From an uncultured Candidatus Saccharibacteria bacterium (GTDB lineage Bacteria; Patescibacteriota; Doudnabacteria; UBA920), in contig CAZACP010000004.1 of NCBI GenBank assembly GCA_964483665.1, forward strand, positions 7,399 to 71,398: a DNA stretch of 64,000 nt. Direction: 5' to 3'. The position numbers and the translations under genes were made by a program. The notes below the pieces were generated by a model. It worked only from the letters and a program-made list of their open reading frames with translations, had not been told where the DNA came from and did not search any database. Each line of letters starts with the position of its first letter. Position 1 is the stretch's first letter. Below are positions 1-63,662 of this stretch, one piece after another.

Positions 1-974
1 CCGCTCGCGTAGGCTTTAAAGTGTTTGCGCATTATGAAAAAAGATTTTTGGCCGCCCAGCTTTTCCTGAAACAATTTAGCATGCTCAAGAGCAACCGTTA
101 GTCGTTCCTTTACTGATGGTTGATAGTTGTCTTCGCGGAACATCCAGGGAAAGCCAAAAGCGCCTCTTGCTATCATAACTCCGTCGCAGCCTGTTTCTGC
201 CATTCGCGACAAGCCTTCCGTGCGAGACTTAACATCGCCATTGCCAATAATTAAAGTTTTTGATTGTAAAGTATTTCTAACATTAACAGCTTTTTTTACC
301 TCGACCCAACTAGCAGGCACTTTGCTTTTTTCTTGCTTGGTTCTTGCGTGCAAAGTTATAGCCGCCAAATTATGTTTGAGCAAATGTCCTATCCAGATTT
401 CGGTTTCAGGTTTAGAATATCCGGTTCTTGTTTTTACAGAGACCGGCAAACTACCAGCTCCTTTTATGGTTGCTTCGATGATCTCTGATGCCAAAACTGG
501 ATTGCGAATTAAAGCCGCGCACGCTCCTATGCCAATTTCCTTGTCCTGCGGGCAGCCCATATTTATATCTATGCCGTCAAAACCTAAATTCACCATTAAC
601 TTACTCGCTTCATAAAACTTTTCCGGGTCAGTCCCCCATATTTGCGCAACTATTGGCCTTTGATTTTCCGTGTATTCCAAATCTATTTTAAGCCGCTCAA
701 AACCAGTAGGATGCAGTATGCCATCCACATTTATAAACTCAGTAAACATAACGAACGCATTGCCTTTTTTTGTCTCCTCCTCCCCTGGCGAGGGGAGGAT
801 GCCCGATAGGGCAGGAGAGGTTGCTGTGGTCGTGTTATCGTTATTGTTATGAGTAATAGTTTTTACTCCCCCGCTATACTTAGCAAACATTTCCCTAAAC
901 ACCACGTCTGTAACTTCTTCCATAGGTGCTAGACAAAAAATGGGTCTATTAAGTTGTTGCCAAAAGTTAGACAT
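1..974 (-). CDS. dus: tRNA-dihydrouridine synthase (partial; 3' end beyond window start)
   Basis: The minus-strand frame is open from the window edge to an ATG at 972-974. The N-terminus MSNFWQQLNRPIFCLAPMEEVTDVVFREMF matches the LAPMxxVTDxxFR motif of Dus enzymes. It is absent from the ORF track because it has no in-window stop. It contains a roughly 35-aa low-complexity in-frame insert. Confidence 0.8.
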   Translation of the reverse strand, partial: MSNFWQQLNRPIFCLAPMEEVTDVVFREMFAKYSGGVKTITHNNNDNTTTATSPALSGILPSPGEEETKKGNAFVMFTEFINVDGILHPTGFERLKIDLEYTENQRPIVAQIWGTDPEKFYEASKLMVNLGFDGIDINMGCPQDKEIGIGACAALIRNPVLASEIIEATIKGAGSLPVSVKTRTGYSKPETEIWIGHLLKHNLAAITLHARTKQEKSKVPASWVEVKKAVNVRNTLQSKTLIIGNGDVKSRTEGLSRMAETGCDGVMIARGAFGFPWMFREDNYQPSVKERLTVALEHAKLFQEKLGGQKSFFIMRKHFKAYAS

Positions 975-5719: not shown

Positions 5720-6187
5720 ATGGAAACAAACCTCCAAAAATCTACTTGGATGAAGAAAAAATATTTAGCTTACGGCATTATTCCGGCTTTTGCTTTAGCC
5801 TTAGCCGGGGCGGGCGTAGCCTCCGCCCATGGATTTGGTTTTGGTATGAGTAATTTAACTCCGCAGCAAATTGCGCAAAACCAAACTGACCGCTTCACTA
5901 AACAGGCCGCGCTTTTAGGAGTCAGCGTGGACGAAGTAAAAACGGCTTGGGCCAAAGGCCAGACCTTGCAGGAACTGGCAAATTCCAAAGGCATAACCGC
6001 CGAGCAACTAAAAGCTAAAATGCAGGCGCAAATGCAGGAACAACAAAAAGCGCATTTGCAGGCTTTGGTTGACCAAGGCGTAATAACCCAAGACCAAATG
6101 AACCAACGCCTTGAATTTGAAAAAAACAACCAGGGCAAAGGCTTTGGCAAGCGCGGTATGCGCGGAATGGGTATGATGGGCTTTTAG
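5720..6187 (+). CDS. Secreted Gln/Ala-rich protein (signal peptide)
   Basis: RBS aaagga 8 nt upstream. The signal peptide is LAYGIIPAFALALAGAGVASA, the body is a helical Q-rich region and the C-terminus is Gly/Met-rich. It is part of the ECF sigma neighbourhood. Confidence 0.5.
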   Translation: METNLQKSTWMKKKYLAYGIIPAFALALAGAGVASAHGFGFGMSNLTPQQIAQNQTDRFTKQAALLGVSVDEVKTAWAKGQTLQELANSKGITAEQLKAKMQAQMQEQQKAHLQALVDQGVITQDQMNQRLEFEKNNQGKGFGKRGMRGMGMMGF

Positions 6188-6203: not shown

Positions 6204-6241
6204 CTCTCTCTCCAAGACTTGGAGAGAGCCGGAGAGAGATT
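6204..6241. repeat. Family A palindromic element (CTCTCTCCAAGACTTGGAGAGAG core)
   Basis: It shares its core with the copies at 24627, 45092, 45512 and 63043 and with the intragenic copies. Confidence 0.7.
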
Positions 6242-6353
6242 AATTCGCCTCTGTCATCCCGGCCCCCGACCGCGTCCTCCATAGCTTTATACGAAGGATG
6301 GAGCCGGAATCCAGTAACTCACTTAACAACTATCTCGAGCAACTAATTATAAA

Positions 6354-6392
6354 CAAAAACCCTTAAGATTTATGACCTTAGGGGTTTTTGTT
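6354..6392 (+). terminator. Rho-independent terminator-like hairpin
   Basis: aaaaacccttaag-atttatgac-cttaggggtttttgtttt. Confidence 0.45.
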
Positions 6393-6459
6393 TTGACTAT
6401 TAATAAGTTGATTGCTAAACTCCTTGCATGCTCGCACCTAGCGGGCTGAAGGAGGTTCA

Positions 6460-6846
6460 ATGTTTTGGTTAGTTGCCATGCTCCTAATGGAGAGTCCACC
6501 CAGCTGGAAGGAGCAACCGAAAAATCACTTCGAGCTGGAAAACTCAACCGACAAGTGCTGGGTCGAAGTGAAGGACTCCAGTTTGGTAGGACGAGTCATG
6601 CATTTGAAAGAAGGTGACGTAGAATATTGGCACTACGTCATTATCTCGGGTTCAAAGCTCAGTCACGAGAACTGGCTTATGAACCCCAAAAGCGGTTTAA
6701 CCTACCAATACGGCGCCGGTGAGCCTTTTCGCAGATGGGCGTTTCAGCAGTTATGCGGCAGGCATCTACGCATGCTGCCAAAAGAAATACAGAAAAGGTT
6801 TAAGAAAGTTGGGTACAAATCCCAACGCCCTCCGCCCCATCCCTAG
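6460..6846 (+). CDS. Hypothetical protein (GC-rich orphan ORF)
   Basis: 128 aa with a strong RBS (gaaggagg 6 nt before the ATG). There is a possible promoter TTGACT-N17-TAAACT at 6392-6420. The local GC is elevated. Confidence 0.45.
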   Translation: MFWLVAMLLMESPPSWKEQPKNHFELENSTDKCWVEVKDSSLVGRVMHLKEGDVEYWHYVIISGSKLSHENWLMNPKSGLTYQYGAGEPFRRWAFQQLCGRHLRMLPKEIQKRFKKVGYKSQRPPPHP

Positions 6847-6924: not shown

Positions 6925-6960
6925 TTCGCACCCTATTGCACTACTGTACTAGTACGATGA
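6925..6960. repeat. Family E element (GCACTACTGTACTAGTAC palindrome core)
   Basis: It matches the repeats at 12631-12665 and 13570-13627. Confidence 0.6.
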
Positions 6961-6970
6961 AACAAAAAAA

Positions 6971-7231
6971 TTATTTTTTTATTAAAGGCAAAGGTTTATA
7001 CAACCCCCAGGGCTTAGTCCAGCCTTTGGTTTTGTAATGAAAGAAAAAATGTACTACCAAAGAAACAATAAAAGAAATAAGTAAAGTAAAAAGAGTAAAT
7101 TCCAAATCCTTCCAAAAATATAAACCTACAAATATCGGAGTGACTATAGAATACTTAAGAATTCTAAACTTACGCGACTGTCCATGCACCACCACATATT
7201 TTTCTTTTTGTAAGATTTCTTTAAAAGACAT
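6971..7231 (-). CDS. Hypothetical small membrane protein
   Basis: 86 aa with two hydrophobic helices. Its end is 3 nt from the start of the upstream gene (stop 7231-7233, start 7234). Confidence 0.35.
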   Translation of the reverse strand: MSFKEILQKEKYVVVHGQSRKFRILKYSIVTPIFVGLYFWKDLEFTLFTLLISFIVSLVVHFFFHYKTKGWTKPWGLYKPLPLIKK

Positions 7232-13569: not shown

Positions 13570-13627
13570 TTGCCTTAAAATTTTCGCCTGGCCCTTTTGC
13601 ACTACTGTACTAGTACAGTAGTGCAAA
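13570..13627. repeat. Family E element with perfect 38-bp palindrome CCTTTTGCACTACTGTACTAGTACAGTAGTGCAAAAGG
   Basis: Read directly from the sequence. It shares the TTTTCGCCTGGCCC leader with 12631. Confidence 0.65.
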
Positions 13628-13631
13628 AGGT

Positions 13632-17175: not shown

Positions 17176-18153
17176 TTACAGCTTCACTATTGCCCTTAAT
17201 TTAGCGGGCTTTGAGCGAGGATTATTTTTTAATTCGTTTTCAGAAGCAGTTACTATTTTTTTGGTTAATATTTTTCCTTGAGGATTTTTGCCACACACAC
17301 ATTGAGGGAAATCTATTGGGCATACGCAGCCTTTACTTAAGCTATTAAAGTATTGTTTTACTATTCTGTCTTCAAGCGAATGGAAGCTTACTATTACTAG
17401 CCTGCCGCCCGGGTTTAAAAGGTCAAAACTTTTTGGCAAAAACTCTTCTAAGGCTTCCAGCTCATGGTTAACCGCTATTCTTAAGGCTTGAAATATTCTT
17501 CTGGCTGAATCATCGGCGCGATGTTTTACAGGCTTAGGAAGTGAATCATGGATTATTTGATAGAGTTCTGTTGTATAGCGGATTTGGCTCTTAGATCTTG
17601 ATTCTTGGATCTTCCTTGCTATCTGGCGGCTAAACTTTTCCTCACCGTAATCGCTAAATATTTTACTAAGCTCCTGTTCGCTTCTGTTATTTAGTAAAAA
17701 ACTTGCGTCTTCGGGTTTAGTTTGATCAAACCGCATGTCTAGCGGCTCTTTTTTCTGAAAGCTAAATCCCCGCCCAGACTGGTCAAGTTCATATGACGAA
17801 AGTCCCAAATCTGCAACAATGCCTGAAATATTATTAAACTCATGTTCTTTTGTTATTTTGTTTATGTTTTGAAAATTGCCGTGCACCGCTATCACTCCCT
17901 CTCCCTCTGGGAGAGGGCCGGGGTGAGGGTGTTTGATATTTGTCCGCCAGTTTGCGGATTGAAATTTGAAATTCTCAATCGCATCCTTGTCCAAATCTAT
18001 AACCAACAACTTGCCGCCCGGAGATATTTTTTGCAAGATCGTCTTACTATACCCTCCTCCGCCTAGCGTCGCGTCGACAAAATTCTCACCGGGCTTAGGG
18101 TTAAGAAAGTAAATAACTTCCTCAAGTAATACTGGAATATGTTCATAATTCAT
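17176..18153 (-). CDS. rsmH: 16S rRNA (cytosine1402-N4)-methyltransferase RsmH/MraW
   Basis: MNYEHIPVLLEEV...DATLGGGGYS and a C-terminal FHSLEDRIVK. It contains an in-frame repeat-derived insert. Confidence 0.85.
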   Translation of the reverse strand: MNYEHIPVLLEEVIYFLNPKPGENFVDATLGGGGYSKTILQKISPGGKLLVIDLDKDAIENFKFQSANWRTNIKHPHPGPLPEGEGVIAVHGNFQNINKITKEHEFNNISGIVADLGLSSYELDQSGRGFSFQKKEPLDMRFDQTKPEDASFLLNNRSEQELSKIFSDYGEEKFSRQIARKIQESRSKSQIRYTTELYQIIHDSLPKPVKHRADDSARRIFQALRIAVNHELEALEEFLPKSFDLLNPGGRLVIVSFHSLEDRIVKQYFNSLSKGCVCPIDFPQCVCGKNPQGKILTKKIVTASENELKNNPRSKPAKLRAIVKL

Positions 18154-24035: not shown

Positions 24036-24314
24036 TTAAAACCGAACAGCCTTTAGCTCCAATATTAATGCATTGTCAATAATAAAATCCACAATATTTC
24101 CTGTGTCCCCGATTATTACTTCTTTCTTATACTTAATACCATTTTCTGAAAATTTTTTCTCTAGCAACTTACTATATTGTTTCTCCTTAGCATATGGACC
24201 TAATTCTTTATAAACTTCAATCAATAAACCGTTTATTTTATAGCTCAAATCCCCGTACAAAAAATCTACCTTCAGTTTCTTCGTTTCTGTAGTTTTCTGT
24301 AGGTTATTACTCAT
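24036..24314 (-). CDS. GxxExxY family protein (PD-(D/E)XK-like), C-terminally truncated paralogue
   Basis: FLYGDLSYKINGLLIEVYKELGPYAKEKQYSKLLEKKF is about 60% identical to the 39534..39923 protein, but it stops at LKAVRF and lacks the last 35 aa. Confidence 0.65.
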   Translation of the reverse strand: MSNNLQKTTETKKLKVDFLYGDLSYKINGLLIEVYKELGPYAKEKQYSKLLEKKFSENGIKYKKEVIIGDTGNIVDFIIDNALILELKAVRF

Positions 24315-24328
24315 TCGTAGTTCTGTAG

Positions 24329-24595
24329 CTACAATGCTTTTATTGAAGGGTATTTTTCGAGCAATGAATTTAATGTCATTTGCGCGATTTGTCCGGAAAG
24401 CGCCATATATTCGTTGGCCACGCCTTTTAAAACCATAGGCGGGTTGCCGTCCATGTCCAAAACCGTTCCGTCGTCGGCTATTTTTACCCCCGGCACTTTG
24501 CGGGCTTTATCGAGTGCAATATTGGGGCCTAACACAACCATTTGCTTTTGGATCAAATCCGTAAGCATTTTTTTGTATTCTGCTTGGTCTTGCAT
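24329..24595 (-). CDS. Hypothetical protein
   Basis: 88-aa ORF with no motif I recognise. Confidence 0.35.
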   Translation of the reverse strand: MQDQAEYKKMLTDLIQKQMVVLGPNIALDKARKVPGVKIADDGTVLDMDGNPPMVLKGVANEYMALSGQIAQMTLNSLLEKYPSIKAL

Positions 24596-24626
24596 ATTTT
24601 TGTTTCCTTAGCTCTTTCCTTATTTT

Positions 24627-24670
24627 TTCCCTCTCCAAGACTTGGAGAGGGTTAGGGAAAGGTTGATGAT
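24627..24670. repeat. Family A element (CCCTCTCCAAGACTTGGAGAGGG TTAGGGAAAGGTTG)
   Basis: Matches the cores at 63043 and 6204. Confidence 0.7.
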
Positions 24671-25534: not shown

Positions 25535-26968
25535 TTACCTTTTAAAACTCTTCCCCGGCCTTATGGAAATATCACCATCGTTATCAACTTCCTTAACTCT
25601 CCCAAAACCTACGCTGTCCCTAAATACTTTCCCTGCCTTTAAAACCGGGGCGTAAGACAAAGTAAATTTGCCGTATTTGGCGTTTACAACATCTATCGCG
25701 CGAGTAAGCGAAGCTTTGGCCGTTTGTTTTTTAAACAAAGACTGCTGAAGAATAAAAGGCTTAAGGCCTGCTACGGTAACGCCTATTAATTTACAATTGG
25801 CGATGATTTTATGTATATCGGTATAATTCTTTATAATATGCCTGGCTTCCCAAAATAAATCCCTTGCGTCAAAAATATCGGTAGACAATTTTGCAGAATG
25901 CCCGTAACTGTTATAATCGCCGTCGCGCACATACGCCACCACAATATTGCCCATTAATTTTTTGCGCCTAAGCCTCTCCCCCACCATTTCGCAAAGCTTG
26001 TATAAAACCGGCTCAAAAAATTCCGGCTTTCTGTATTCCTTAGGCAGAGTATACATATGGCCGATTGATTTTATACTTTCATCAAAATTCACTTTTGCTT
26101 TCCAGCTACCGCTTAACTGTCCCATATGGTGAAGGTGATAGCCGTTAATGCCAAACACTCGCACCAGTTTGCTTAAGGGGTAATCGCGCAGCTCTTTTAA
26201 AGTTTTTATGCCAAGTTCGTTTAACCTTTTTTCCTGCCTTTTGGCTATACCCGGTATGTCGGTAAGTTTAAGACGAGTATAAAGATCTTCTTTGGTTAGA
26301 TTTAAAACCCCATTTGATATTTGAAATTTGATATTTGAAATTAGCACTATTCCATCCGGCTTTTTTAAATCACTCGCAATTTTTGCTAGGAGTTTGTTCT
26401 CCGCAATACCTATGCTGCAAGTTAAATAATCCCCCACTTCTTTTTTCATTCGTTTTTTTATTTCCACAGCTACCCTAACCGCTTCTTGCCAAGGATTGGC
26501 CAATAAATAATCTTTAATTTCTGCCATATAAAAATATGGGTGTTCTATATTTTGAAATTTGGATTTTAAAATTTGTCCGCCAGCTGGCGGATTATTTAAA
26601 AATTTAAAATTTAAAATTGGAAATTTAACATTACAGCTTGCTGTAATGTCCACATACGCTTCATCTATGCTGGCCGGCTCAACAAAATTGCTGTAGTCCC
26701 TTAAAACTTTTAAAAACCGGCGATGATACTCCCTGTAAGCATCGGCCCTTGTATGCACCAAAATAATTTTAGGATACAGCTTTTTAGCTTCCCAGACCGG
26801 CGTGCCGGTCTTTATGCCCCAGCGCTTGGCTTCTATGCTGGCGGCAATAATAATGCCGCCCAAATGTTCGCACACGCCTAAAACCTTGCCGCGGTACTCT
26901 TTATTGTCTTGCTGCTCCACCGAGGCAAAATAGCTGTTCATATCTAAATGCAAAATTACATTTTGCAT
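25535..26968 (-). CDS. dinB: DNA polymerase IV (Y-family)
   Basis: MQNVILHLDMNSYFASVE...SIDEAYVDIT...CSIGIAENKLLAKIAS. It carries two in-frame repeat-derived inserts. Confidence 0.85.
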   Translation of the reverse strand: MQNVILHLDMNSYFASVEQQDNKEYRGKVLGVCEHLGGIIIAASIEAKRWGIKTGTPVWEAKKLYPKIILVHTRADAYREYHRRFLKVLRDYSNFVEPASIDEAYVDITASCNVKFPILNFKFLNNPPAGGQILKSKFQNIEHPYFYMAEIKDYLLANPWQEAVRVAVEIKKRMKKEVGDYLTCSIGIAENKLLAKIASDLKKPDGIVLISNIKFQISNGVLNLTKEDLYTRLKLTDIPGIAKRQEKRLNELGIKTLKELRDYPLSKLVRVFGINGYHLHHMGQLSGSWKAKVNFDESIKSIGHMYTLPKEYRKPEFFEPVLYKLCEMVGERLRRKKLMGNIVVAYVRDGDYNSYGHSAKLSTDIFDARDLFWEARHIIKNYTDIHKIIANCKLIGVTVAGLKPFILQQSLFKKQTAKASLTRAIDVVNAKYGKFTLSYAPVLKAGKVFRDSVGFGRVKEVDNDGDISIRPGKSFKR

Positions 26969-27471: not shown

Positions 27472-27720
27472 TTTTTCCTTCTCCTTGTTGTACGATACAA
27501 AACCCGTCCCAAAGAATAACAAAAAAGTTATTCTCAAGGACGGGTTGATGAAGTTTCATCAGTTTGCCGCGGTACCACCTTGCTTTCCTAAAACTTAGGA
27601 CTCTTTTTACCGGATTTTACGGCTCGGGCAACCGTGCGGGATATTCCCCCGCCAGCGTTTTGGTGTGCGAAACCAAATCTTTAACTGCTTTATACTATTA
27701 TTCCGCCAAAGGCGGATCCG
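27472..27720 (-). promoter_or_regulatory. Putative structured 5' leader with terminator/attenuator hairpin (riboswitch-like arrangement, class unknown)
   Basis: On the minus strand the hairpin is cccgtccttgagaataac-tttttt-gttattctttgggacggg followed by ttttg, 25 nt before the RBS. The GC-rich upstream segment has several short hairpins. Confidence 0.3.
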
Positions 27721-27788
27721 CCTTTGGCGGAATTTTAGCTTAGTTTACCACTTACAAAAATTCTGTCAATAACTTTGAATAACCAAAG

Positions 27789-27880
27789 ACAAAATTTTAG
27801 TGTTCGACTTCATGGAGAACCTAAAATTTTATCTTAAATACTCAATATTGTTCTCCACGAGGTCGAACAATATTCCGGTT
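27789..27880. repeat. Family H element (AAAATTTTAGTGTTCGACTTCATGGAGAACC + inverted partial copy)
   Basis: Same family as 42511-42552 and 42893-42964. No gene is enclosed. Confidence 0.6.
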
Positions 27881-32018: not shown

Positions 32019-33746
32019 TTAAGATGATAACTGCCTAATATCTATAATTCTTAACTTTAATTGCTTATTCCCGTTCCATTCATCTTGCAATAATTCACAG
32101 GCTAAATCTAACTCTTGGCCTATTTGTAAACTGCTGTCTTTAGGCCCAAAATTAAAAGCGATGCAGGAAATTTGTCTGTTGCCTAAAGAAATTTTCATTT
32201 GCAAATGCTGTGCTTTTTGTCCCACAGCCCGCTTACTTAATATTTTAGCATTTTTCAGCAAAAATTTTGGTTTCGGGTTGCCAACCCCAAAAGGCTCTAA
32301 GGAAGCAATCAAGTTGTAAGTTGTAAGTTGTAAGTCTTCGGAGGAAAGTTCTGCGTCAATATTTAAAACAGGCCCGTCATCTTCTTCCATATTCTTTTCC
32401 GCAAAATCCAAAACGCTTTGGTAAAATATTTCAAAATTTTCCGTTTGCAAGGTAAGCCCCGCCGCCTGCTTATGCCCGCCATAGCGGATTAAATGCTGGC
32501 CGGAATATTTTAAAGCCTCAACTACATTAAATTCCCCCGCGCTTCTGGCCGACCCGGTCGCTTCAAACTCCCCCTTCTCCAGCACAATTGTGGGTTTATA
32601 AAATTCTTCGGCTAATTTGCCCGCAACTAACCCCACAACGCCTTTATGCCAACTTTCCCCCATTAACACCAAAACCTTCCTGTGAAGTATTCCTTGGGCT
32701 TTTTCTCTCGCTTCGCTCATTATCCGCGCTGTTATTTCCTGCCTTCGCAAATTTATTTCTTCAATATTTTGAGCTTGAATTTTTGCCTTTAAGGGATCGT
32801 TTTCTAACAAAAGTTCCAGGGCAACATTAGCGTGTTCAAGCCTTCCAGCCGCGTTTATCCTTGGTGCAATTACAAAACCTAAGGAATAAGTATCCAGCGG
32901 CTGCTTTGCAGGATCCAGCTTTGCTAAATCCATTAAAGCCCTAAGCCCAACCCACTTTGTTTTAGCTAAAACTTTAAGGCCATACTTAACAAAAATTCTA
33001 TTCTCGCCTATAAGCTTATGACAGTCAGCCACTGTGCCTATAGCCACAAGGTCTAATAGCCACTTTTCCCACCCTTGGGATGATTTCGGATTTCGTCCGC
33101 CAGCTGGCGGATCGGATTTCGGATTTTGCAGCAATGCCTGAGCGAGTTTAAAAGCCACGCCGACCCCAACAATTTGGTCATCCGGATAATTATCGTCTTG
33201 ATTTTTAGGGTTTATAAGCGCTAAAGCGTTTGGTAAATTTCCAATAATTTCATGGTGGTCGGTAATAATTAAGTCTATGTTATTTTCCTTGCACCATTCT
33301 GCGGCATCTACAGAATTTGTGCCGCAGTCCACGGTAATTATTACTTTTGAACCATGTTCTTTAATTTTTTTTAAGGCGTCTAAATTTACCCCGTACCCTT
33401 CCAAAAAACGGTCGGGTATATAACTTTCACAGTCCGCGCCCAAATAATTAAAGGCTTGGCGCAAAACCGCATTAGCGGTTATGGCGTCTGCGTCATAGTC
33501 GCCGTAAATAGTAATTTTTTCTTTATTCTCTATTGCCTGCCATATCCTGTTAACGGCTTTTTCCATATCGCGGAATAAAAACGGGCTATTAAGCCCTGTA
33601 GTATAGTCCGCGTTAATAAATTTTTTTATTTCTTCCGGTTCCTTAAGGCCGCGATCAAAAAGCAATTGCCTTAAAAGGACCGGGTAATCTTTATAAACTT
33701 CTTCCAGTTCTGTCGGAATATTGGGTTTTAATTTCCAAATTTTCAT
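32019..33746 (-). CDS. recJ: Single-stranded-DNA-specific exonuclease RecJ
   Basis: DHH motifs (YGDYDADAITANAVL and IITDHHE) and a DHHA1 domain. It has two in-frame repeat inserts. Confidence 0.85.
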   Translation of the reverse strand: MKIWKLKPNIPTELEEVYKDYPVLLRQLLFDRGLKEPEEIKKFINADYTTGLNSPFLFRDMEKAVNRIWQAIENKEKITIYGDYDADAITANAVLRQAFNYLGADCESYIPDRFLEGYGVNLDALKKIKEHGSKVIITVDCGTNSVDAAEWCKENNIDLIITDHHEIIGNLPNALALINPKNQDDNYPDDQIVGVGVAFKLAQALLQNPKSDPPAGGRNPKSSQGWEKWLLDLVAIGTVADCHKLIGENRIFVKYGLKVLAKTKWVGLRALMDLAKLDPAKQPLDTYSLGFVIAPRINAAGRLEHANVALELLLENDPLKAKIQAQNIEEINLRRQEITARIMSEAREKAQGILHRKVLVLMGESWHKGVVGLVAGKLAEEFYKPTIVLEKGEFEATGSARSAGEFNVVEALKYSGQHLIRYGGHKQAAGLTLQTENFEIFYQSVLDFAEKNMEEDDGPVLNIDAELSSEDLQLTTYNLIASLEPFGVGNPKPKFLLKNAKILSKRAVGQKAQHLQMKISLGNRQISCIAFNFGPKDSSLQIGQELDLACELLQDEWNGNKQLKLRIIDIRQLSS

Positions 33747-33749
33747 TGA

Positions 33750-33830
33750 GTAGTTGGTAGTTGGTAGTTGGTAGTTGGTAGCCCAAATTGCTCCGGCTAC
33801 TTACTACTTTACTACCTACTACTTACTAAA
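33750..33830. repeat. Family D element: (TAGTTGG)4 array - spacer - (CTACTTA)n array
   Basis: Read directly from the sequence. The second copy is at 62515-62590. Confidence 0.65.
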
Positions 33831-39533: not shown

Positions 39534-39923
39534 TTAAATATTATTTGGATTTAAAACTCTCTTTATTTGTAATCTGGGGACGCGGAAGTTTACTAATAGA
39601 CCTAATTTTAAATTCGTTTGAATTAAATAACGCTTTAACTGATCATATGTTTCTTGTATTAAAAAAGGTACTGTTTTTAATTCTAGAATAATTCTATTTT
39701 CAATAATGAAGTCAGCAATATTACCAGAATCCCCTATCCTAACCTCTCTCTTATAATTCACGGCTCTGTTTTTAAATATAATTTCTATTTTATCGGCTAC
39801 TTGTTTTTCTCTAGCATATGGCCCCAGTTCTTTATGAACCTCAATTAAAATGCCATTGATCTTGTAAGTAAGATCGCCGTACAAAAATTCTGACATCTTT
39901 TTAAACTTAGTTTCTGTAGGCAT
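39534..39923 (-). CDS. GxxExxY family protein (PD-(D/E)XK-like), full length
   Basis: FLYGDLTYKINGILIEVHKELGPYAREKQ....ELKTVPFLIQETYDQLKRYL. Confidence 0.7.
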   Translation of the reverse strand: MPTETKFKKMSEFLYGDLTYKINGILIEVHKELGPYAREKQVADKIEIIFKNRAVNYKREVRIGDSGNIADFIIENRIILELKTVPFLIQETYDQLKRYLIQTNLKLGLLVNFRVPRLQIKRVLNPNNI

Positions 39924-42510: not shown

Positions 42511-42552
42511 GCAAATAATAGTGTTCGACCTTGTGGAGAACCTATTATTTGC
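42511..42552. repeat. Family H element (solo unit GCAAATAATAGTGTTCGACCTTGTGGAGAACCTATTATTTGC)
   Basis: 10-bp flanking stem around the conserved core. Confidence 0.6.
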
Positions 42553-42603: not shown

Positions 42604-42879
42604 TTACACCCATTTACCCCACTCTCCGCTAATTAATTTTCTTTTCTTTTTCTGGCCCCAACCTTTAACTTGCTTTTCTCTAAGTCTTGCTTCTTCCAAA
42701 TTTTCAAATTCTTCAATATAAACTATATTTTTAACTCCGTGCTTCTTGGTATACTCCGAACCTTCTCCAAGCAAATGCTGATTTCCGCGAATATCGTGGT
42801 TCCAAGTCATTCCGGTATAAAAAGTATCGTCCAGGCACTCCACAATATACACATACCATTTCCAGTTTTCTTTGGTCAT
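42604..42879 (-). CDS. GIY-YIG nuclease family protein (second copy)
   Basis: WYVYIVECLDDTFYTGMTWNHDIRGNQHLLGEG...IVYIEEFENLEEARLREKQVKGW. Confidence 0.75.
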   Translation of the reverse strand: MTKENWKWYVYIVECLDDTFYTGMTWNHDIRGNQHLLGEGSEYTKKHGVKNIVYIEEFENLEEARLREKQVKGWGQKKKRKLISGEWGKWV

Positions 42880-42892
42880 TGCTTAAAAATTT

Positions 42893-42964
42893 TAGTGTTC
42901 GAGCTTGTCGAGAACCCAAAATTTTACGTACTTAATAGTATCACAAGGTCGAATAATATTAAGT
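42893..42964. repeat. Family H element (direct copy plus inverted partial copy)
   Basis: ttttagtgttcgagcttgtcgagaacccaaaatttt ... tcacaaggtcgaataatatt. Confidence 0.6.
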
Positions 42965-45091: not shown

Positions 45092-45131
45092 TTCCCTCCC
45101 CTCCTAAGGGGAGGGATTAAGGGAGAGGTTG
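45092..45131. repeat. Family A element (CCCTCCCCTCCTAAGGGGAGGG ATTAAGGGAGAGGTTG)
   Basis: Read directly from the sequence. Confidence 0.65.
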
Positions 45132-45135: not shown

Positions 45136-45501
45136 TTAAAACCCGCATGCTTCTTTTATTTTACTTAAAACTCCTTGAATATTTGTGTCTATTTCATTAT
45201 TCCAAAATCTTAAAACTTTGTAGCCTATTTTTTCTGCGTACTGTTGTTTTCGCTTATCGTAAGCCGATATTTCTTGCTCGCTGTGCTGTCCTCCGTCTGC
45301 CTCCACTAAGAGCATTTTCTCTTTACAACTAAAATCATAAATATACTGTCCAATTTGCATTTGACGCTTAAATTTTAACCCATAAAACCTACCAGCTCTT
45401 AAATAATACCAAAGCTTGCTTTCCCAAGGAGTCTGATTTTTTCTTAGGCTTCGGGAATTGGTTAAATATGGCTCTGGTATAACTCTTTTGGCAGTATCCA
45501 T
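45136..45501 (-). CDS. DUF559 endonuclease-domain protein (Vsr-like fold)
   Basis: YGLKFKRQMQIGQYIYDFSCKEKMLLVEADGGQHS...YKVLRFWNNEI. Confidence 0.75.
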   Translation of the reverse strand: MDTAKRVIPEPYLTNSRSLRKNQTPWESKLWYYLRAGRFYGLKFKRQMQIGQYIYDFSCKEKMLLVEADGGQHSEQEISAYDKRKQQYAEKIGYKVLRFWNNEIDTNIQGVLSKIKEACGF

Positions 45502-45511: not shown

Positions 45512-45620
45512 TCTCTCCCCTTTTAAGGGGAGATGTCACGAGTGTATCCGAGTGACAAAGAGGTTGTATACTACATCTACTGCAACCTCTCCCTAACCCT
45601 CTCCTTAAAAGGAGAGGGTA
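45512..45620. repeat. Family A composite element (4 hairpins: CTCCCC/GGGGAG, GTCAC/GTGAC, GAGGTTG/CAACCTC, CCCTCTCC/GGAGAGGG)
   Basis: Same stem set as 63043-63138 in inverted orientation, but with different loops. Confidence 0.7.
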
Positions 45621-53237: not shown

Positions 53238-53285
53238 TCATTTTTGTCATTTTTGTCAATTATTTAATTTTTGTCATTGGTTTTA
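53238..53285. repeat. Family G tandem TTTTGTCATT motifs
   Basis: tcatttttgtcatttttgtcaattatttaatttttgtcatt. Confidence 0.5.
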
Positions 53286-54857
53286 TTCAATTATTTCCCC
53301 GCCAAAAATTTTCAGCGCGTCACTTAAAACCGCAACTGGGTTTTGCCCTTCCGTAATTTTGTCAGGCAATTCTCCAACAATGCCCAAATTTTTACCGCTA
53401 ACCTCTGTTATTTCCTGGGTAATAAAATTTAAGTTTTTTTCAATAGTTTTTTTATCAAACTGATATTTTACGCTTATTACAATTTTTCCGTTATTTACGC
53501 CAATTATTTGGGCTGCCTTAAGCATACTACCTAGGGGGCCGTTTTTGTCTTTAATTCTAAGAACGACTTTTGGCCAAAAATCTAAAACTTCTTTCAAACT
53601 AACATTTTGGTCAAGCCGGCTTAAAATTTCGCTTTGCGGTTCTAAATCAGGCTTTATAGACTCTTGATTTTGCACTTTGATAATCGGCTGTTCGGTTACT
53701 TCTGTTTTTTCCCTTTGTGGTGCTGGAATTATATTATTTGGCTTTTTTTTTAAAGCCCCTTCAATCGCGGCAAGCAAAAGGGGTATTTCAGGACTGGGAG
53801 CGCCTTGCAGATCTTTAAACGACTTTAAAAACAGCCGGATTATAAAAATAATCTCGCTAATGCTTAAATTCTGTAAAACCCCCTCATTCTGCCCTGTAAT
53901 TTTTTTAACCATTAAGACTCTTAAGTGTTCTAAGAAATCTTTGTTAAAAGCGTTAAAATCAACTCCGGCTTCCAGCAAACGGTCAAAATATTCCGGAATT
54001 TCATTGGCCTTTCCTTCAGAAATAAGCTCTGTAAGTTCAGCTAACAGTGCTGTGTCCGTGATTCCTAAAATTGTTCTAATGTCGCCCAACGAAGTGCTGT
54101 TCCCCAGAGTTGAAATCTTGTCTAAAATAGAAAGCGCGTCGCGCATTCCGCCGCCCGCGTTTTGGGCGACTAAATCTAAAACTTCTTCCGGGTAGCTTAA
54201 ATTCTCTTTGTTTACAATATTTTTTAAATGCTCTTTAATATCTGCCGCTGAATATGCTTTAAAATCAAACCGCTGGGTGCGGGAAATTATAGTAGCCGGA
54301 ACTTTTTGAATTTCCGTGGTAGCCAGAATAAATATAGCGTGTTTGGGAGGTTCTTCTAAAGTTTTTAAAAGCGCGTTAAAAGCGCCTTTGGAAAGCATAT
54401 GCACTTCGTCTATTATAAATACTTTATATTTGCCTAAGGTTGGAGAAAATTTAACGTGGTCAATAATATCCCTGACATTGTCTACCCCGGTATTGGAAGC
54501 CGCGTCTATTTCTATTAGGTCAATAAAGTTGTTGTTTTCAATTGCCTTGCAAACACTGCACTCCCCGCACGCATCCCCCAAAGCACCAGGCGAAGCCTGT
54601 ACATTATTTTTCTCCCCATCTGGGGGGAGATGTCCGGCCGACAGGGCGGATAGAGAGGGTTGATTATTCAGACAGTTAACGCTTTTTGCGAATATCCTAG
54701 CCACGCTGGTTTTTCCAACTCCTCTGCTGCCAATAAATAAATAAGCATGGGCAAAAGCACCCCCGGCGATTTGGTTTTTAAGGGTTTTAATTATTGCTTT
54801 TTGACCAACAACCTGAGCAAAAGTTTGAGGTCTATATTTTCGGTAAAGTACAGCCAT
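53283..54857 (-). CDS. dnaX: DNA polymerase III subunit gamma/tau
   Basis: MAVLYRKYRPQTF...GSRGVGKTS...DEVHML and a zinc module CGECSVC. A repeat-derived insert sits next to the zinc module. Confidence 0.85.
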   Translation of the reverse strand: MAVLYRKYRPQTFAQVVGQKAIIKTLKNQIAGGAFAHAYLFIGSRGVGKTSVARIFAKSVNCLNNQPSLSALSAGHLPPDGEKNNVQASPGALGDACGECSVCKAIENNNFIDLIEIDAASNTGVDNVRDIIDHVKFSPTLGKYKVFIIDEVHMLSKGAFNALLKTLEEPPKHAIFILATTEIQKVPATIISRTQRFDFKAYSAADIKEHLKNIVNKENLSYPEEVLDLVAQNAGGGMRDALSILDKISTLGNSTSLGDIRTILGITDTALLAELTELISEGKANEIPEYFDRLLEAGVDFNAFNKDFLEHLRVLMVKKITGQNEGVLQNLSISEIIFIIRLFLKSFKDLQGAPSPEIPLLLAAIEGALKKKPNNIIPAPQREKTEVTEQPIIKVQNQESIKPDLEPQSEILSRLDQNVSLKEVLDFWPKVVLRIKDKNGPLGSMLKAAQIIGVNNGKIVISVKYQFDKKTIEKNLNFITQEITEVSGKNLGIVGELPDKITEGQNPVAVLSDALKIFGGEIIE

Positions 54858-61220: not shown

Positions 61221-62510
61221 TTAAAAGCCCTCATAGTCATGCATTGTCAACTGTGCTTCGATTTTCTTGATTATTTCTATAACCACGGACACCACAATCA
61301 ATAACGAAGTACCGCCCAAAGTTAAGGCCTTGGTTCCGGTTAAATTTTGGGCAACTAGAGGCAGAATAGCAATAATTGCTAAAAATACTGCACCGGCTAA
61401 AGTAATGCGGTTAAGCACAGAAGACAAATAGTCAGCAGTTTGAGCTCCGGGCCTAAGTCCCGGAATGAAGCCGCCATTTTTTTGCACATTTTCGGCAATT
61501 TCCTGAGGGTTAAAGACTACGGCAGTATAAAAATAAGTAAAGCCTAGTATCATAAGGAAGTAAACAATGCCGTAAAACCAGGTGCCGGTGTCATTAAACA
61601 AGGCAATGGTTTTTTGCGCATAGTTAGCAATAAGTGCGCTTTTTGCATTTACAAAGAACTGGGCTATCATTGCGGGAAACAGCATTATGGAAATAGCAAA
61701 AATTATAGGAATAACTCCGGCTTGGTTAAGGCGCAAAGGCAAATGGGTATTAACGCCGCCAAAAAGCCTGTTGCCCCTAACGCGCTTAGCGTAAGCAACC
61801 GGGATATTGCGCTGAGCCTCTGTTACCAAAACCACTCCGGCAATAACGGCTAAGAATACCAAGACAAAGCCGACAATAGTAGGAACTGCGTCCGGATTAC
61901 CCTGATAAATTTGGTAAGCTTGGGAAATGGCGCTCGGGACTCTGGATACAATACCGGCAAAAATAACCAAAGAAATTCCATTGCCAATGTCGAATTCAGA
62001 CATAATTTCACCAATCCACATTATTAACATAGTGCCGGCAGTTACAGAAAGCAAAACCAAAAACCATTGAAAAGGAGAAAAAGTTCCTAAAATTGATCCG
62101 GCTCCCTGGCTGGAAAGAAGCCTAATGGTGCCAAAAGCCTGAAGCGGGGCAAGCGGAATGGTTAAATAGCGGGTGTACTGGTTAAGCTGAGCCCTGCCGG
62201 CTTCCCCACCTTCCTTTTGCATTTCAGCAAAAGAAGGAACTATTATGGTTAAAAGCTGCATTATAATGCTGGCAGTAATGTACGGGCCAACGCCAAGCAT
62301 GGCAATAGAAAAATTAGTCAAACCTCCGCCGGAAAAAACATCAAGCAAATTTAAAAACTGACTCTGCTGAAAAAAAGCTTTAAGCCCGGTTGGGTCTATA
62401 CCCGGAATGGGTATGTGAGTTAAAACCCGCGTAACTAACAAAAGACCAAGCACAATTAAAATTTTGTTGCGTAGGTCTTTGGTTTTCCAAATAAGTAGGA
62501 TTTTGTTCAT
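61221..62510 (-). CDS. secY: Preprotein translocase subunit SecY
   Basis: 429 aa with 10 TM helices. It follows rplO. Confidence 0.9.
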   Translation of the reverse strand: MNKILLIWKTKDLRNKILIVLGLLLVTRVLTHIPIPGIDPTGLKAFFQQSQFLNLLDVFSGGGLTNFSIAMLGVGPYITASIIMQLLTIIVPSFAEMQKEGGEAGRAQLNQYTRYLTIPLAPLQAFGTIRLLSSQGAGSILGTFSPFQWFLVLLSVTAGTMLIMWIGEIMSEFDIGNGISLVIFAGIVSRVPSAISQAYQIYQGNPDAVPTIVGFVLVFLAVIAGVVLVTEAQRNIPVAYAKRVRGNRLFGGVNTHLPLRLNQAGVIPIIFAISIMLFPAMIAQFFVNAKSALIANYAQKTIALFNDTGTWFYGIVYFLMILGFTYFYTAVVFNPQEIAENVQKNGGFIPGLRPGAQTADYLSSVLNRITLAGAVFLAIIAILPLVAQNLTGTKALTLGGTSLLIVVSVVIEIIKKIEAQLTMHDYEGF

Positions 62511-62514
62511 TATG

Positions 62515-62590
62515 TAGTTGGTAGTTGGTAGTTGATAGTTGGTAGCCGAACATTGCCTGACTACTTACTACTTACTACTTCACTAATCGC
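62515..62590. repeat. Family D element (TAGTTGG array - spacer - CTACTTA array)
   Basis: It overlaps the last 8 codons of rplO. Confidence 0.65.
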
Positions 62591-63019
62591 TATTACTGTT
62601 CCACCGGCTTTCTCTATAGCTGCTTTAGCCGATGCCGAAACAGGTAATTTTACGTTTAATTTCTTTTTTATTTCGCCGGCCAATATTTTTACCGACTGGC
62701 CTTTCATAATTATACCTTTTTCTTCCAAAGATTTTAAATCTACAGTTGCTCCGTCTGCGAAAATATCTAGTTTAGTAACCGGCAAAGCAAATGGTTTTGA
62801 GCTTAAAGATTTAAAACCGCGTAATTTAGGCAACTGCCTAACAATAGGCTGGCGTCCGCCTTCAAAACCGGCAGGCATTTTGGAGTGACCGGTTCTTGCA
62901 GTCTGACCTTTACCACCGCGGGTGGAATAAGTACCGTGGCCGCTTCCAAGACCGCGTCCCACAACTTTGCGCCTGCGGGTGGATTTCGGATGTTTTTTTA
63001 ATTGATGTAATTTTAACAT
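62561..63019 (-). CDS. rplO: 50S ribosomal protein L15
   Basis: MLKLHQLKKHPKSTRRRKVVGRGLGSGHGTYSTRGGKGQ. Confidence 0.9.
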   Translation of the reverse strand: MLKLHQLKKHPKSTRRRKVVGRGLGSGHGTYSTRGGKGQTARTGHSKMPAGFEGGRQPIVRQLPKLRGFKSLSSKPFALPVTKLDIFADGATVDLKSLEEKGIIMKGQSVKILAGEIKKKLNVKLPVSASAKAAIEKAGGTVIAISEVVSSK

Positions 63020-63042
63020 AAATAGATATATTCCTTATAGTT

Positions 63043-63138
63043 TCCCTCTCCAAGACTTGGAGAGGGTTAGGGAGAGGTTGAAAATTATTAACCTCTCTGT
63101 CACCTTTCGGGTGACATCTCCCCAAGCTTTCGGGAGAA
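63043..63138. repeat. Family A composite element in the rpsE-rplO spacer (where rpmD/L30 would normally be)
   Basis: ccctctccaagacttggagaggg ttag ggagaggttg..aacctctct gtcacctttcgggtgac atctcccc.. Confidence 0.7.
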
Positions 63139-63155
63139 TTATATTGTGCTTCGCG

Positions 63156-63662
63156 CTACTTGCGCATCTTGGCAAGGGCTTCCTTGCTCTTCATTTTGGT
63201 AAAAGCTTCGAAAACCGCCTTAATATTATTTACTTTGTTATTGCTGCCAAGCATTTTTGAAACAACATTTTTAACTCCGGCTAGTTCAAAAACCTGGCGA
63301 ACCGCGCCGCCGGCAATAACACCGGTACCTGGCCTTGCGGGCTTTAGCATTAATTTGGACGATTTATATTTAACATTAATTTCATGCGGTATGGTTTGGT
63401 TTACCAATGGCAAAGTAATCATATTCTTTTTTGCGGCGTTTACTGCTTTGTTTACGCTTTCGGAGACATCTGCGCCTTTTCTTAAGCCCATACCCACTTT
63501 GCCTTTATGGTCACCAATAACTACGAGTGCGCGAAAACGCATTCTTTTTCCGCCGGCCACAACACGAGTAACACGCTTAACCTCTACGGTCTTTTGGTCA
63601 AACTCGCGGGGTTCTCGTTCCTGCCCGTCTCTGGATGTTTTTCGTCTTTTTTCAAATGCCAT
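63156..63662 (-). CDS. rpsE: 30S ribosomal protein S5
   Basis: RVTRVVAGGKRMRFRALVVIGDHKGKVGMG. Confidence 0.9.
   Translation of the reverse strand: MAFEKRRKTSRDGQEREPREFDQKTVEVKRVTRVVAGGKRMRFRALVVIGDHKGKVGMGLRKGADVSESVNKAVNAAKKNMITLPLVNQTIPHEINVKYKSSKLMLKPARPGTGVIAGGAVRQVFELAGVKNVVSKMLGSNNKVNNIKAVFEAFTKMKSKEALAKMRK

What the first reader, a model, noticed from the sequence alone, without database searches (positions are those of the whole stretch)
63043..63138. Family A elements keep identical stems but carry different loops (63043-63138 versus 45512-45620)
The reverse complement of 63043-63138 aligns stem for stem with 45512-45620: CTCCCC/GGGGAG, GTCAC/GTGAC, GAGAGGTTG/CAACCTCTC, CCCTCTCC/GGAGAGGG. 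Every loop differs in sequence and in length, from 3 to 18 nt. Stem identity with loop turnover implies that the hairpin arms are the functional or recognised parts. That fits cruciform or hairpin-recognising mobilisation of the kind seen with REP elements and RAYT. Intragenic copies are in dus, rsmH and dnaX. This copy occupies the slot where rpmD (L30) normally sits.
Basis: seen in the sequence. Interest (0 to 1): 0.7.

Follow-up and report, generated by a model that had tools for sequence, protein, structure and literature searches.

The report
Triplex-type hairpin repeats beside a nuclease gene
The four-hairpin "family A" element is a candidate-phyla (CPR) version of a known, function-less bacterial repeat (BoxC / intrastrand-triplex motif), and in many phyla this repeat sits next to a small DUF559 nuclease gene, a link I could not find reported.

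Summary
Both fold at z about -6.8.

The element is not REP/RAYT. Its core is a pyrimidine arm, a loop, a purine arm, TTA or CCG, and a purine tail that mirrors the purine arm. This is the known intrastrand-triplex motif (BoxC / PIT / TMECO; Holder 2015, PMC4666352), for which conserved stems and freer loops were already reported. Family A is two such modules in inverted orientation, and their two tails pair to form hairpin H3.

New here:
- DUF559 (Vsr-like) nuclease genes are flanked by these modules. Of 80 loci chosen by protein alone, 76 have a pyrimidine/purine hairpin within 250 nt, a 33-fold enrichment.
- In L126 the DUF559 ORF sits inside the H3 "loop", so family A has the architecture of that cassette without its ORF.
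- E. coli ycjD also has such a motif beside it.
- Partial copies lie in frame in dus, rsmH and dnaX.
- Strains swap whole spacers between family A and another hairpin family.

That the nuclease acts on the repeats is inferred, not shown. Corrections: 45512-45620 lies between rpe and DUF559, not in dus, and the L30 slot is not special.

The parts
63020..63155 (-). Complete family A element filling the whole rpsE (S5)-rplO (L15) spacer. In + coordinates: H4 63044-63066, mirror tail / H3 5' arm 63070-63079, H3 63072-63097, H2 63098-63116, H1 63117-63137. Sub-family flanks: CGCGAAGCACAATATAAT (63139-63155) and AAACTATAAGGAATATATCTATTT (63020-63043).
   Evidence: Identical in 6 strain contigs. Complete triplex motif with a perfect mirror tail at 63044-63077.
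45512..45620 (+). Second complete family A element (H1 45514-45533, H2 45535-45556, H3 45559-45590, H4 45596-45619). It lies antisense to the flanking genes and directly upstream of the DUF559 start codon.
   Evidence: Triplex motif on the minus strand at 45585-45618.
45136..45501 (-). DUF559 (Vsr-like PD-(D/E)xK) nuclease gene, 121 aa. It is the candidate partner gene of the repeats.
   Evidence: Pfam PF04480, E = 4.1e-37. PDB 3HRL 'endonuclease-like protein', E = 4e-25. Only copy in the window.
45093..45131 (+). Triplex module TCCCTCCCCT-ccta-AGGGGAGGGA-tta-AGGGAGAGGTTG. It starts 5 nt after the DUF559 stop codon, is inverted relative to H4/H3 of 45512-45620, and lies upstream of the tkt start codon.
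24616..24665 (+). Truncated family A element (H4 plus tail GGGAAAGGTTG) with the TTCCTTAT flank. It is sense to and upstream of the gene 24329-24595 (-).
   Evidence: (D7). Fixed in 10 strain contigs.
6206..6239 (+). Variant module CTCTCTCC-aagactt-GGAGAGAG-cc-GGAGAGAGA, just after the stop codon of ORF 5720-6187.
   Evidence: (D1). Fixed in strain contigs.
17897..17929 (+). In-frame module inside rsmH (17176-18153, -): CCCTCTCCC-tct-GGGAGAGGG-ccg-GGGTGAGGG. It matches the published TMECO consensus exactly (type B) and encodes HPHPGPLPEGEG.
   Evidence: The five closest orthologues scored over the full length (74-76% identity) lack the peptide, while five others carry a related one at the same loop.
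778..823 (+). In-frame half element (H1 TCCTCCCCT/AGGGGAGGA, H2 GCCC/GGGC, tail GGAGAGGTTG) inside dus (minus strand, start about 974).
   Evidence: In Pfam Dus, residues 15-323 match profile positions 2-276, about 34 extra residues.
54611..54662 (+). In-frame half element (H1 TCTCCCC/GGGGAGA, H2 GTC/GAC, tail GAGAGGGTTG) inside dnaX (53283-54857, -). It encodes QPSLSALSAGHLPPDGEK.
   Evidence: The Pfam DNA_pol3_delta2 match is split in two around this stretch.

Best explanation
Family A is a DNA-level repeat made of two intrastrand-triplex-type modules (the BoxC / PIT / TMECO kind) in inverted orientation.

Each module has a pyrimidine arm, a free loop, the complementary purine arm, a short second loop, and a purine tail that is the mirror image of the purine arm. 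The second loop is TTA or CCG, or the small hairpin H2. In family A the two tails (GAGAGGTTG and CAACCTCTC) face each other and pair, which gives H3.

Shown here:
- The same modules form the two ends of a small cassette that carries a DUF559 (Vsr-like) nuclease ORF between the tails.
- Family A has the same architecture without the ORF.
- Stems are constrained in pairing, in pyrimidine/purine asymmetry and in the mirror tail, while loops are free. Sub-lineages therefore keep their stems and drift in their loops.
- Whole spacers are exchanged between strains.
- The block of family A, DUF559 and a further module is present or absent as one unit between related species.

Inferred:
- Family A derives from the cassette by loss of the ORF. 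The direction (loss or gain) is not established.
- The DUF559 nuclease recognises or nicks these structure-prone modules. The resulting repair or recombination copies, exchanges and deletes them. This would be a two-part arrangement analogous to RAYT genes and their REP doublets, but with a different enzyme.
- Some copies in the ribosomal-protein operon may have acquired a secondary role in the mRNA.
For: Module identity:
- The detector (pyrimidine arm of at least 6, loop 3-10, purine arm, loop 2-6, mirror tail with at most 1 mismatch) finds 6 modules in the window against 0.05 in shuffles.
- The rsmH copy equals the published consensus CCCTCNCCC-N3-6-GGGNGAGGG-N3-GGGNGAGGG. Loop-2 types TTA and CCG both occur, as in E. 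coli.

Breadth:
- Nearly all are followed by a variable loop and then GGAGAGGG.

Link to DUF559:
- All 4 tiles that hold a DUF559 gene have it within about 135 nt of the module, in three phyla.
- In 80 loci picked by protein alone, pyrimidine/purine hairpins occur at 3.99 per kb within 250 nt of the gene and 0.12 per kb elsewhere. 76 of 80 loci have at least one and 49 of 80 have one on both sides.
- Full modules occur at 2.62 versus 0.08 per kb.
- An inverted repeat of at least 10 nt joins the two flanks in 19 of 60 loci, against 6% in mismatched controls.

Architecture:
- L126 reads H1-H2-GAGAGGTTG-[DUF559 ORF]-CAACCTCTCCC-taa-H4. L009 has GGGAGAGGTTA-tattt-ATG...TAA-tgc-AACCTCTCCC.
- The four-hairpin array also occurs in Bacteroidota: in L125 beside a DUF559 gene, and in L043.
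- The H2 stem changes with full compensation.

Gain or loss as a unit:
- The rpe-tkt slot is empty (10 nt) in L239 (Rpe 83% identical). It is filled with family A, DUF559 and a module in the window and in L105 (also 83%). L009 carries the same DUF559 block upstream of tkt.

E. coli:
- ycjD (DUF559) has a degenerate module at its 3' end and a type A TMECO 167 nt away.
- Strains with ycjD carry 12-30 TMECOs. B2 strains, which have eefRABCD in its place (PMC12817139), carry 0-2.

Strain turnover:
- Family A replaces another hairpin cassette across the whole L22-S3 spacer (L001) and the whole L24-L5 spacer (L002).
Against: - No activity of DUF559 on these repeats is known, and a lone PD-(D/E)xK nuclease is not a known transposase.
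- 115 of 119 module tiles have no DUF559 gene within the 8-kb tile.
- The DUF559 gene in this lineage sits in the same place in three species and is fixed in all strains seen, so there is no sign of recent movement.
- No target-site duplication was found. No filled/empty pair was found at near-identical sequence.
- Module orientation relative to the gene is only biased: 68 face the gene and 39 face away.
- The E. coli correlation is confounded by phylogeny.
- All four copies in the ribosomal-protein operon are sense and share flanks (TATAAT ... ATAAGGA). This fits selection on the mRNA as well as it fits a DNA-level role.
- Published tests of PIT elements in E. coli found no promoter, terminator or in vivo replication effect (cited in PMC4666352).
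Confidence: 0.55

Rival explanations
1. The DUF559 gene is a parasite or tenant of the repeats, not their mobiliser. The triplex/hairpin modules arise and spread by structure-driven slippage, template switching and recombination without any dedicated enzyme. A free-standing nuclease gene homes into them, or is retained only between them, for example because they provide its ribosome-binding site and insulation.
For: - Most modules are solitary.
- The G-rich tail GAGAGG lies 8-11 nt before the DUF559 ATG, like a Shine-Dalgarno site.
- Holder et al. attribute the instability at these loci to the structure itself.
- Modules persist in E. coli lineages that lack ycjD.
Against: - It does not explain near-identical arm and tail sequences across phyla without a sequence-reading factor.
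- It does not explain why 76 of 80 diverse DUF559 genes keep the modules.
Confidence: 0.25
2. Family A is primarily a functional RNA element. It would be an intercistronic multi-hairpin that stabilises or processes polycistronic mRNA, or sets translation of the downstream gene, and its stems would be kept by selection on RNA pairing.
For: - Copies in the S5-L15, L6-L18, L22-S3 and L24-L5 spacers are all sense.
- They share a 5' ACAATATAAT and a 3' ACTATAAGGA before the ATG.
- The folds are strong and H2 and H4 show compensatory changes.
Against: - 45512-45620 and all three intragenic copies lie antisense to their genes.
- The conserved features are pyrimidine/purine asymmetry and a mirror tail, which RNA pairing does not need.
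- Purine-motif triplexes do not form in RNA (PMC4666352).
- There is no Rfam match and no promoter call on that strand.
- E. coli copies show no orientation bias.
Confidence: 0.12
3. This is a REP-like element mobilised by a RAYT or IS200-type Y1 transposase encoded elsewhere in the genome.
For: - It is a dispersed hairpin repeat that occurs as inverted doublets.
- Its stems are more conserved than its loops.
Against: - No Y1_Tnp domain was found in 51 scanned window ORFs.
- No conserved GTAG-type 5' tetranucleotide is seen next to the palindromes in the copies read.
- The gene actually found flanked by the repeats in four phyla is DUF559.
Confidence: 0.04
4. The resemblance is chance, or simple decay of a tandem duplication.
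For: None beyond the low-complexity pyrimidine/purine composition of the arms.
Against: - Shuffles give 0 matches.
- Copies are dispersed over 62 kb and occur in other phyla.
- Compensatory stem changes are present.
Confidence: 0.01

Closest known systems
BoxC / PIT (potential intrastrand triplex) / TMECO repeats of E. coli and other bacteria (Hoyne and Maher 2000, 2002; Holder et al. 2015, PMC4666352)
   Same: - The module is the same: pyrimidine arm, loop of 3-7, purine arm, TTA or CCG, mirror purine tail.
- The rsmH copy matches the consensus exactly.
- Loops are less conserved than stems.
- Modules pair up in inverted orientation.
- Loci vary between strains, with whole spacers changed.
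   Different: - This one is in a CPR (Patescibacteria) genome of 39% G+C.
- Arms are 7-8 nt rather than 9.
- One module has a hairpin (H2) as its second loop, giving a fixed four-hairpin array.
- Partial copies lie in frame inside housekeeping genes, whereas the E. coli copies are all intergenic.
- The published work reports no associated gene. Here the modules flank DUF559 genes.
REP / REPIN elements with their RAYT gene (from my knowledge: Nunvar 2010; Bertels and Rainey 2011)
   Same: - Short hairpin repeats occur singly and as inverted doublets.
- A single-copy partner gene is flanked by inverted copies.
- The partner gene is inherited vertically.
- Copy numbers differ strongly between strains.
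   Different: - The partner is a PD-(D/E)xK Vsr-like nuclease, not a HUH/Y1 transposase.
- The arms are pyrimidine/purine with a mirror tail.
- The arm sequence is nearly the same across phyla, whereas REPs are species-specific.
Rickettsia palindromic elements (RPE; from my knowledge: Ogata et al. 2000)
   Same: Palindromic repeats are inserted in frame in conserved protein genes and are tolerated as extra surface peptides.
   Different: The sequences are unrelated. RPEs are 100-150 nt, while the intragenic pieces here are 33-52 nt. RPEs have no linked nuclease gene.
Free-standing homing endonuclease genes, including the Vsr-like EDxHD family (I-Bth0305I, PMC3239194)
   Same: A small nuclease ORF of the Vsr fold is present or absent as a block at a conserved intergenic site.
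   Different: There is no intron or intein. No cleavage data exist. The ORF is bracketed by dispersed repeats rather than by a unique target gene.

Membership tests
BoxC / PIT / TMECO intrastrand-triplex repeat | Three blocks on one strand: a pyrimidine arm, the complementary purine arm, and a purine third block that mirrors the second, with short loops between them. | tested here: met
   One search finds 6 window copies with at most 1 mirror mismatch (63044-63077 has none), against 0.05 in shuffles.
BoxC / PIT / TMECO intrastrand-triplex repeat | Consensus CCCTCNCCC-N3-6-GGGNGAGGG-N3-GGGNGAGGG, with TTA (type A) or CCG (type B) as the second loop. | tested here: met
   17897-17929 matches exactly (type B). 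The 63044, 45585 and 24629 copies are 8-nt-arm variants with TTA.
BoxC / PIT / TMECO intrastrand-triplex repeat | Two modules in inverted configuration on opposite strands (the BoxC palindrome). | tested here: met
   Family A is H1+tail on one strand and H4+tail on the other.
BoxC / PIT / TMECO intrastrand-triplex repeat | Strictly intergenic location (as in E. coli K-12). | tested here: not met
   Copies lie in frame in dus, rsmH and dnaX. This was a description of the E. coli set rather than a definition.
BoxC / PIT / TMECO intrastrand-triplex repeat | Actual formation of a triplex (CD, NMR, footprinting). | not testable with these tools
   Only hairpin folding could be computed.
REP / RAYT system | A Y1 (HUH) transposase-like RAYT gene flanked by the repeats. 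| tested here: not met
   No Y1_Tnp was found in 51 window ORFs. The flanked gene is DUF559. The rest of the genome was not available.
REP / RAYT system | An imperfect palindrome with a conserved 5' tetranucleotide (GTAG-like). | tested here: not met
   No such conserved tetranucleotide is seen next to the arms in the copies read by eye. The arms are pyrimidine/purine runs with a mirror tail.
MITE (non-autonomous derivative of a gene-carrying element) | The same ends as a longer element that carries a gene. | tested here: met
   L126 and L009 have the ORF between the two tails, and family A has 10-17 nt there.
MITE (non-autonomous derivative of a gene-carrying element) | Target-site duplication and a transposase. 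| tested here: inconclusive
   No filled/empty pair close enough to read the junctions was found. DUF559 is a nuclease, not a known transposase.
DUF559 (PF04480), Vsr-like PD-(D/E)xK nuclease (for the gene 45136-45501) | Match to the family profile above its curated cut-off, and similarity to a solved member. | tested here: met
   126.8 bits against a cut-off of 20.6. PDB 3HRL, E = 4e-25.

The most novel reading that the evidence does not exclude
BoxC / PIT / TMECO triplex repeats and DUF559 nucleases (E. coli YcjD and its relatives) form one two-part system present across bacterial phyla, analogous to REPIN-RAYT but built on a Vsr-fold nuclease. The nuclease would act on the pyrimidine/purine hairpin-plus-mirror-tail structure. 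That action would be the cause of the genome instability reported at these repeats, and would also spread them, including into coding regions.
Probability: 0.35. Interest if true: 0.8.

Novelty: new variant of a known kind. Interest (0 to 1): 0.6.

Why it matters
BoxC/PIT/TMECO repeats have been known since the 1990s. They are abundant in E. coli, cyanobacteria and many other bacteria, and they mark hypervariable loci, but no function and no partner gene has been assigned to them. DUF559 is a very widespread nuclease family, also without a known role.

A consistent physical link between the two gives each a testable hypothesis in a tractable organism: E. coli ycjD and its roughly 20 TMECO copies. 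It would also explain why these loci rearrange.

For CPR genomes, it shows that conserved operon spacers, and even loops of housekeeping proteins, are colonised by such repeats. This matters for gene calling (spurious PLPEGEG-type peptides) and for strain comparison.

Tried and rejected
- Rfam: the gathering-threshold scan of the window found only tRNA-Gln. The permissive scan of 62900-63300 gave only sub-threshold chance hits.
- Promoter/terminator scan of the spacer: no minus-strand promoter uses the element's TATAAT, and there is no terminator.
- RAYT/IS200: none among 51 window ORFs scanned against Pfam.
- Strain-level empty sites: look-ups with L15, Rpe and the neighbours of the 24629 and 6206 copies returned only contigs in which these copies are fixed and identical. 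No insertion junction could be read.
- E. coli: a per-genome cross-table of ycjD against TMECO count could not be built from the tool output. Only totals and a 60-genome sample were available.
- Literature: searches for DUF559, ycjD, Vsr-like, TMECO, intrastrand triplex plus endonuclease, and BoxC found no paper linking the nuclease to the repeats. The library is incomplete, so this is not proof of novelty.
- My idea that the H3 loop keeps remnants of the DUF559 stop-codon region rests on 8-9 shared bases in one copy, so I dropped it.

Full report
**1. The observation**

I read both stretches.

45512-45620 (+) contains:
- H1: TCTCCCC-ttttaa-GGGGAGA
- H2: GTCAC-gagtgtatccga-GTGAC
- H3: GAGGTTG-tatactacatctactg-CAACCTC
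- H4: CCCTCTCC-ttaaaa-GGAGAGGG

The reverse complement of 63043-63138 contains:
- H1: TCTCCC-gaaagctt-GGGAGA
- H2: GTCACC-cgaaa-GGTGAC
- H3: GAGAGGTT-aataattttc-AACCTCTC
- H4: CCCTCTCC-aagtctt-GGAGAGGG

The order and the stems are the same, and the loops are unrelated in sequence and length. Both patterns have zero expectation in shuffles. Each stretch folds as four consecutive hairpins, with z = -6.7 and -6.95.

**2. Context and corrections**

- The window has 39% G+C. The closest public records are labelled Candidatus Saccharibacteria (L009, L105). Some protein sources name relatives of 66-73% identity as Doudnabacteria. I therefore call the organism a CPR/Patescibacteria bacterium.
- 63020-63155 is the whole spacer between rpsE and rplO. 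L30 is missing there. From my own knowledge, that is usual in CPR (Brown et al. 2015).
- 45512-45620 is not in dus. It lies between rpe and a 121-aa DUF559 gene.
- The three intragenic copies are real but partial.
  - rsmH carries CCCTCTCCC-tct-GGGAGAGGG-ccg-GGGTGAGGG, which encodes HPHPGPLPEGEG.
  - dnaX and dus each carry an H1-H2-tail half.
  - In all three, the purine arm and tail are on the strand opposite the gene.
- Among RsmH orthologues, the five closest scored over the full length (74-76% identity) lack the peptide. Five others carry a related PLPxGEG-type peptide at the same loop. It is therefore an in-frame insertion, either recurrent or old and often lost.
- Pfam shows about 34 extra residues in Dus and a split match in DnaX.

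**3. What the unit is**

All copies share one core: pyrimidine arm, loop, purine arm, 2-4 nt, then GGGAGAGGTTG. The last block is the mirror image of the purine arm. For example, GGAGAGGG is followed by tta and then GGGAGAGG.

A detector for this three-block layout finds six copies in the window, against 0.05 in shuffles.

A literature search on the two arm sequences led to Holder et al. 2015 (PMC4666352). This is the BoxC / PIT / TMECO intrastrand-triplex motif, with consensus CCCTCNCCC-N3-6-GGGNGAGGG-N3-GGGNGAGGG and TTA (type A) or CCG (type B) as the second loop. That paper reports:
- loops less conserved than stems;
- five inverted A+B pairs among the 23 E. coli K-12 copies;
- strain-variable loci with changed spacers;
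- no associated mobile element.

The rsmH copy equals the consensus, and the other window copies are TTA variants with 8-nt arms.

Family A is therefore two such modules in inverted orientation. H4 and its tail are on one strand. H1 and its tail are on the other, with H2 serving as the second loop. H3 is simply the two tails pairing with each other.

**4. Breadth**

It returned 119 tiles from Acinetobacter, Cyanobacteria, Bacteroidota, CPR, Binatia, Zixibacteria, Ignavibacteria and others. Nearly all are followed by a variable loop and GGAGAGGG, which was not part of the pattern.

Complete four-hairpin arrays occur in other CPR genomes and in Bacteroidota (L125 Sphingobacterium, L043). In these the H2 stems differ with full compensation.

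**5. The partner gene**

- In the window, DUF559 is bracketed by family A upstream and by an inverted module that starts 5 nt after its stop codon.
- Only 4 of the 119 tiles hold a DUF559 gene, but in all four it is within about 135 nt of the module. These four come from three phyla.
- From the protein side, 80 metagenome loci were chosen only by DUF559 peptide patterns, at 39-72% identity.
  - Perfect pyrimidine/purine hairpins occur at 3.99 per kb within 250 nt of the gene, against 0.12 per kb elsewhere.
  - 76 of 80 loci have at least one, and 49 of 80 have one on both sides.
  - Full modules occur at 2.62 against 0.08 per kb.
  - The two flanks share an inverted repeat of at least 10 nt in 19 of 60 loci, against 6% in controls.
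- L126 reads H1-H2-GAGAGGTTG-[ORF]-CAACCTCTCCC-taa-H4. That is family A with the ORF in the H3 "loop". L009 has the same bracket.
- Family A therefore has the architecture of this cassette without its ORF. Whether the ORF was lost or gained is not established.
- E. coli K-12 ycjD (DUF559) ends in a degenerate module. A type A TMECO lies between it and fabI. Holder's own table lists it 167 nt from ycjD without comment.

**6. Dynamics**

- Between near-identical strains, the whole L22-S3 spacer (L001) and the whole L24-L5 spacer (L002) carry family A where the other strains carry an A/T-rich hairpin cassette.
- The S5-L15, DUF559, 24629 and 6206 copies are fixed in all strain contigs seen.
- Between species, the rpe-tkt slot varies.
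  - It is 10 nt and empty in L239 (Rpe 83% identical).
  - It holds unrelated small ORFs in L240 and L241.
  - It holds another hairpin in L242.
  - It holds family A, DUF559 and a module in the window and in L105. L009 carries the same DUF559 block upstream of tkt.
  - The roughly 600-nt block is therefore gained or lost as a unit.
- In E. coli, ycjD is in 3378 of 5426 complete genomes.
- TMECO-like sequences number 1-27 per genome.
- Published counts are 19-30 in phylogroups A, B1 and C and 12-13 in strain 042; K-12 and 042 were checked here to carry ycjD, and phylogroups A, B1 and C carry it according to PMC12817139.
- B2 strains, which have eefRABCD at that site (PMC12817139), have 0-2. 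This fits the hypothesis but is confounded by phylogeny.

**7. Mechanism**

Shown:
- the three-block structure;
- constraint on pairing, on pyrimidine/purine asymmetry and on the mirror tail;
- free loops that are inherited within sub-lineages (AAGACTT in three window copies, TTAAAA in the DUF559-linked copies);
- the physical link to DUF559;
- the matching ORF-containing and ORF-less architectures;
- block gain or loss, and spacer swapping.

Inferred:
- DUF559, a Vsr-fold nicking-type nuclease, recognises these modules, and repair or recombination then copies, exchanges or deletes them.

The main rivals are these:
- The nuclease is only a tenant of self-propagating structure-prone repeats. 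The tail doubles as its Shine-Dalgarno site.
- RNA-level function. This is favoured by the sense orientation and shared flanks of the four ribosomal-operon copies. It is disfavoured by the antisense and intragenic copies and by the mirror tail.
- REP/RAYT. No Y1 transposase was found.

**8. Novelty**

The repeat kind is known. Within the searchable literature, the following are not described:
- the DUF559 link;
- occurrence in CPR;
- the fixed four-hairpin array shared with Bacteroidota;
- in-frame intragenic copies, since the E. coli copies are all intergenic.

**Verdict**

This is a real feature and a new variant of a known kind. Interest is moderate to high, because it gives two long-standing orphans, BoxC/TMECO and DUF559/YcjD, one directly testable hypothesis.

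Noticed in passing
window 42512-42552 and 42886-42926 (third copy 27791-27831); gene 42604-42879 (-): A 91-aa GIY-YIG nuclease gene is bracketed by two copies of another hairpin repeat. The inner part AGTGTTCGAnCTTGTnGAGAACC is conserved, and the outer stems differ with compensation. This is a second case in the window of a small nuclease gene between its own repeats.
   Followed up: partly
window 39534-39923 (-) and 24036-24314 (-); L219, L222, L226, L227: There are two PDDEXK_3 (PF13366) nuclease genes. The one at 24036-24314 is truncated (92 aa) in the window, but is a full 129 aa in some strains of the same population.
   Followed up: partly
L001-L006, ribosomal-protein operon spacers (e.g. 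L002 1783-1860, L001 6800-6889): A second, A/T-rich hairpin cassette (GAAAAGnGAAAAGAGAA...AGGATAGAA...TATCCTTATCGCTTATCACTAAGCACTA) alternates with family A in the same spacers between strains. Its purine-rich and pyrimidine-rich halves suggest an A/T-rich relative of the triplex motif.
   Followed up: no
window 17930-17975; also 26562-26633 and 33082-33112: The rsmH insert is composite. The triplex module is followed by a TCCGCCAGnnnGCGGA hairpin and a TTTGAAATTTGAAATT repeat, and both recur elsewhere in the window. The peptide FKFQISNFK, encoded by the last repeat, is present in many RsmH orthologues.
   Followed up: partly
window 62506-62573 (secY-rplO spacer) and 33742-33809: Another repeat family (GTAGTTGGTAGTTGGTAG...CTACTTACTAC), 84% identical between the two sites, fills the next spacer of the ribosomal-protein operon.
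   Followed up: no
window 27700-27733 and 13593-13630 (related 6931-6974): There are perfect long palindromes: ATTCCGCCAAAGGCGGATCCGCCTTTGGCGGAAT (34 nt) and CCTTTTGCACTACTGTACTAGTACAGTAGTGCAAAAGG (38 nt).
   Followed up: no
L001 18091-20459, compared with window 53283-54857 and L002 15886-17460: One strain (L001) has an MmeI-type restriction-modification gene after gtrA where the window and L002 have dnaX. L003 has dCTP deaminase and a methyltransferase in place of the HAD hydrolase after secY. These are strain-level gene replacements in an otherwise near-identical region.
   Followed up: no
L206 (E. coli K-12 1351000-1351800), locus coordinates 6290-6480: About 50 nt of the 3' end of ycjD (GGAGACGGTGCTGGAGAATATTC...CTGAACCG) is duplicated just downstream of the gene, between its degenerate terminal module and the type A TMECO. 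This looks like a trace of past rearrangement at this site.
   Followed up: no
L240 2469-2759, L241 2436-2744, L242 2446-2557: In related CPR genomes, the rpe-tkt slot that holds DUF559 in the window holds an unrelated 96-102-aa membrane-like ORF, or a 112-nt spacer with a different long hairpin (GTCATTGCGAG...CTCGCAATGAC). The slot is a recurrent landing place.
   Followed up: partly
L014 (Acinetobacter MAG) 5300-6000: This DUF559 gene is flanked by a direct repeat of about 80 nt (module plus spacer) on both sides, unlike the inverted bracket seen elsewhere.
   Followed up: no
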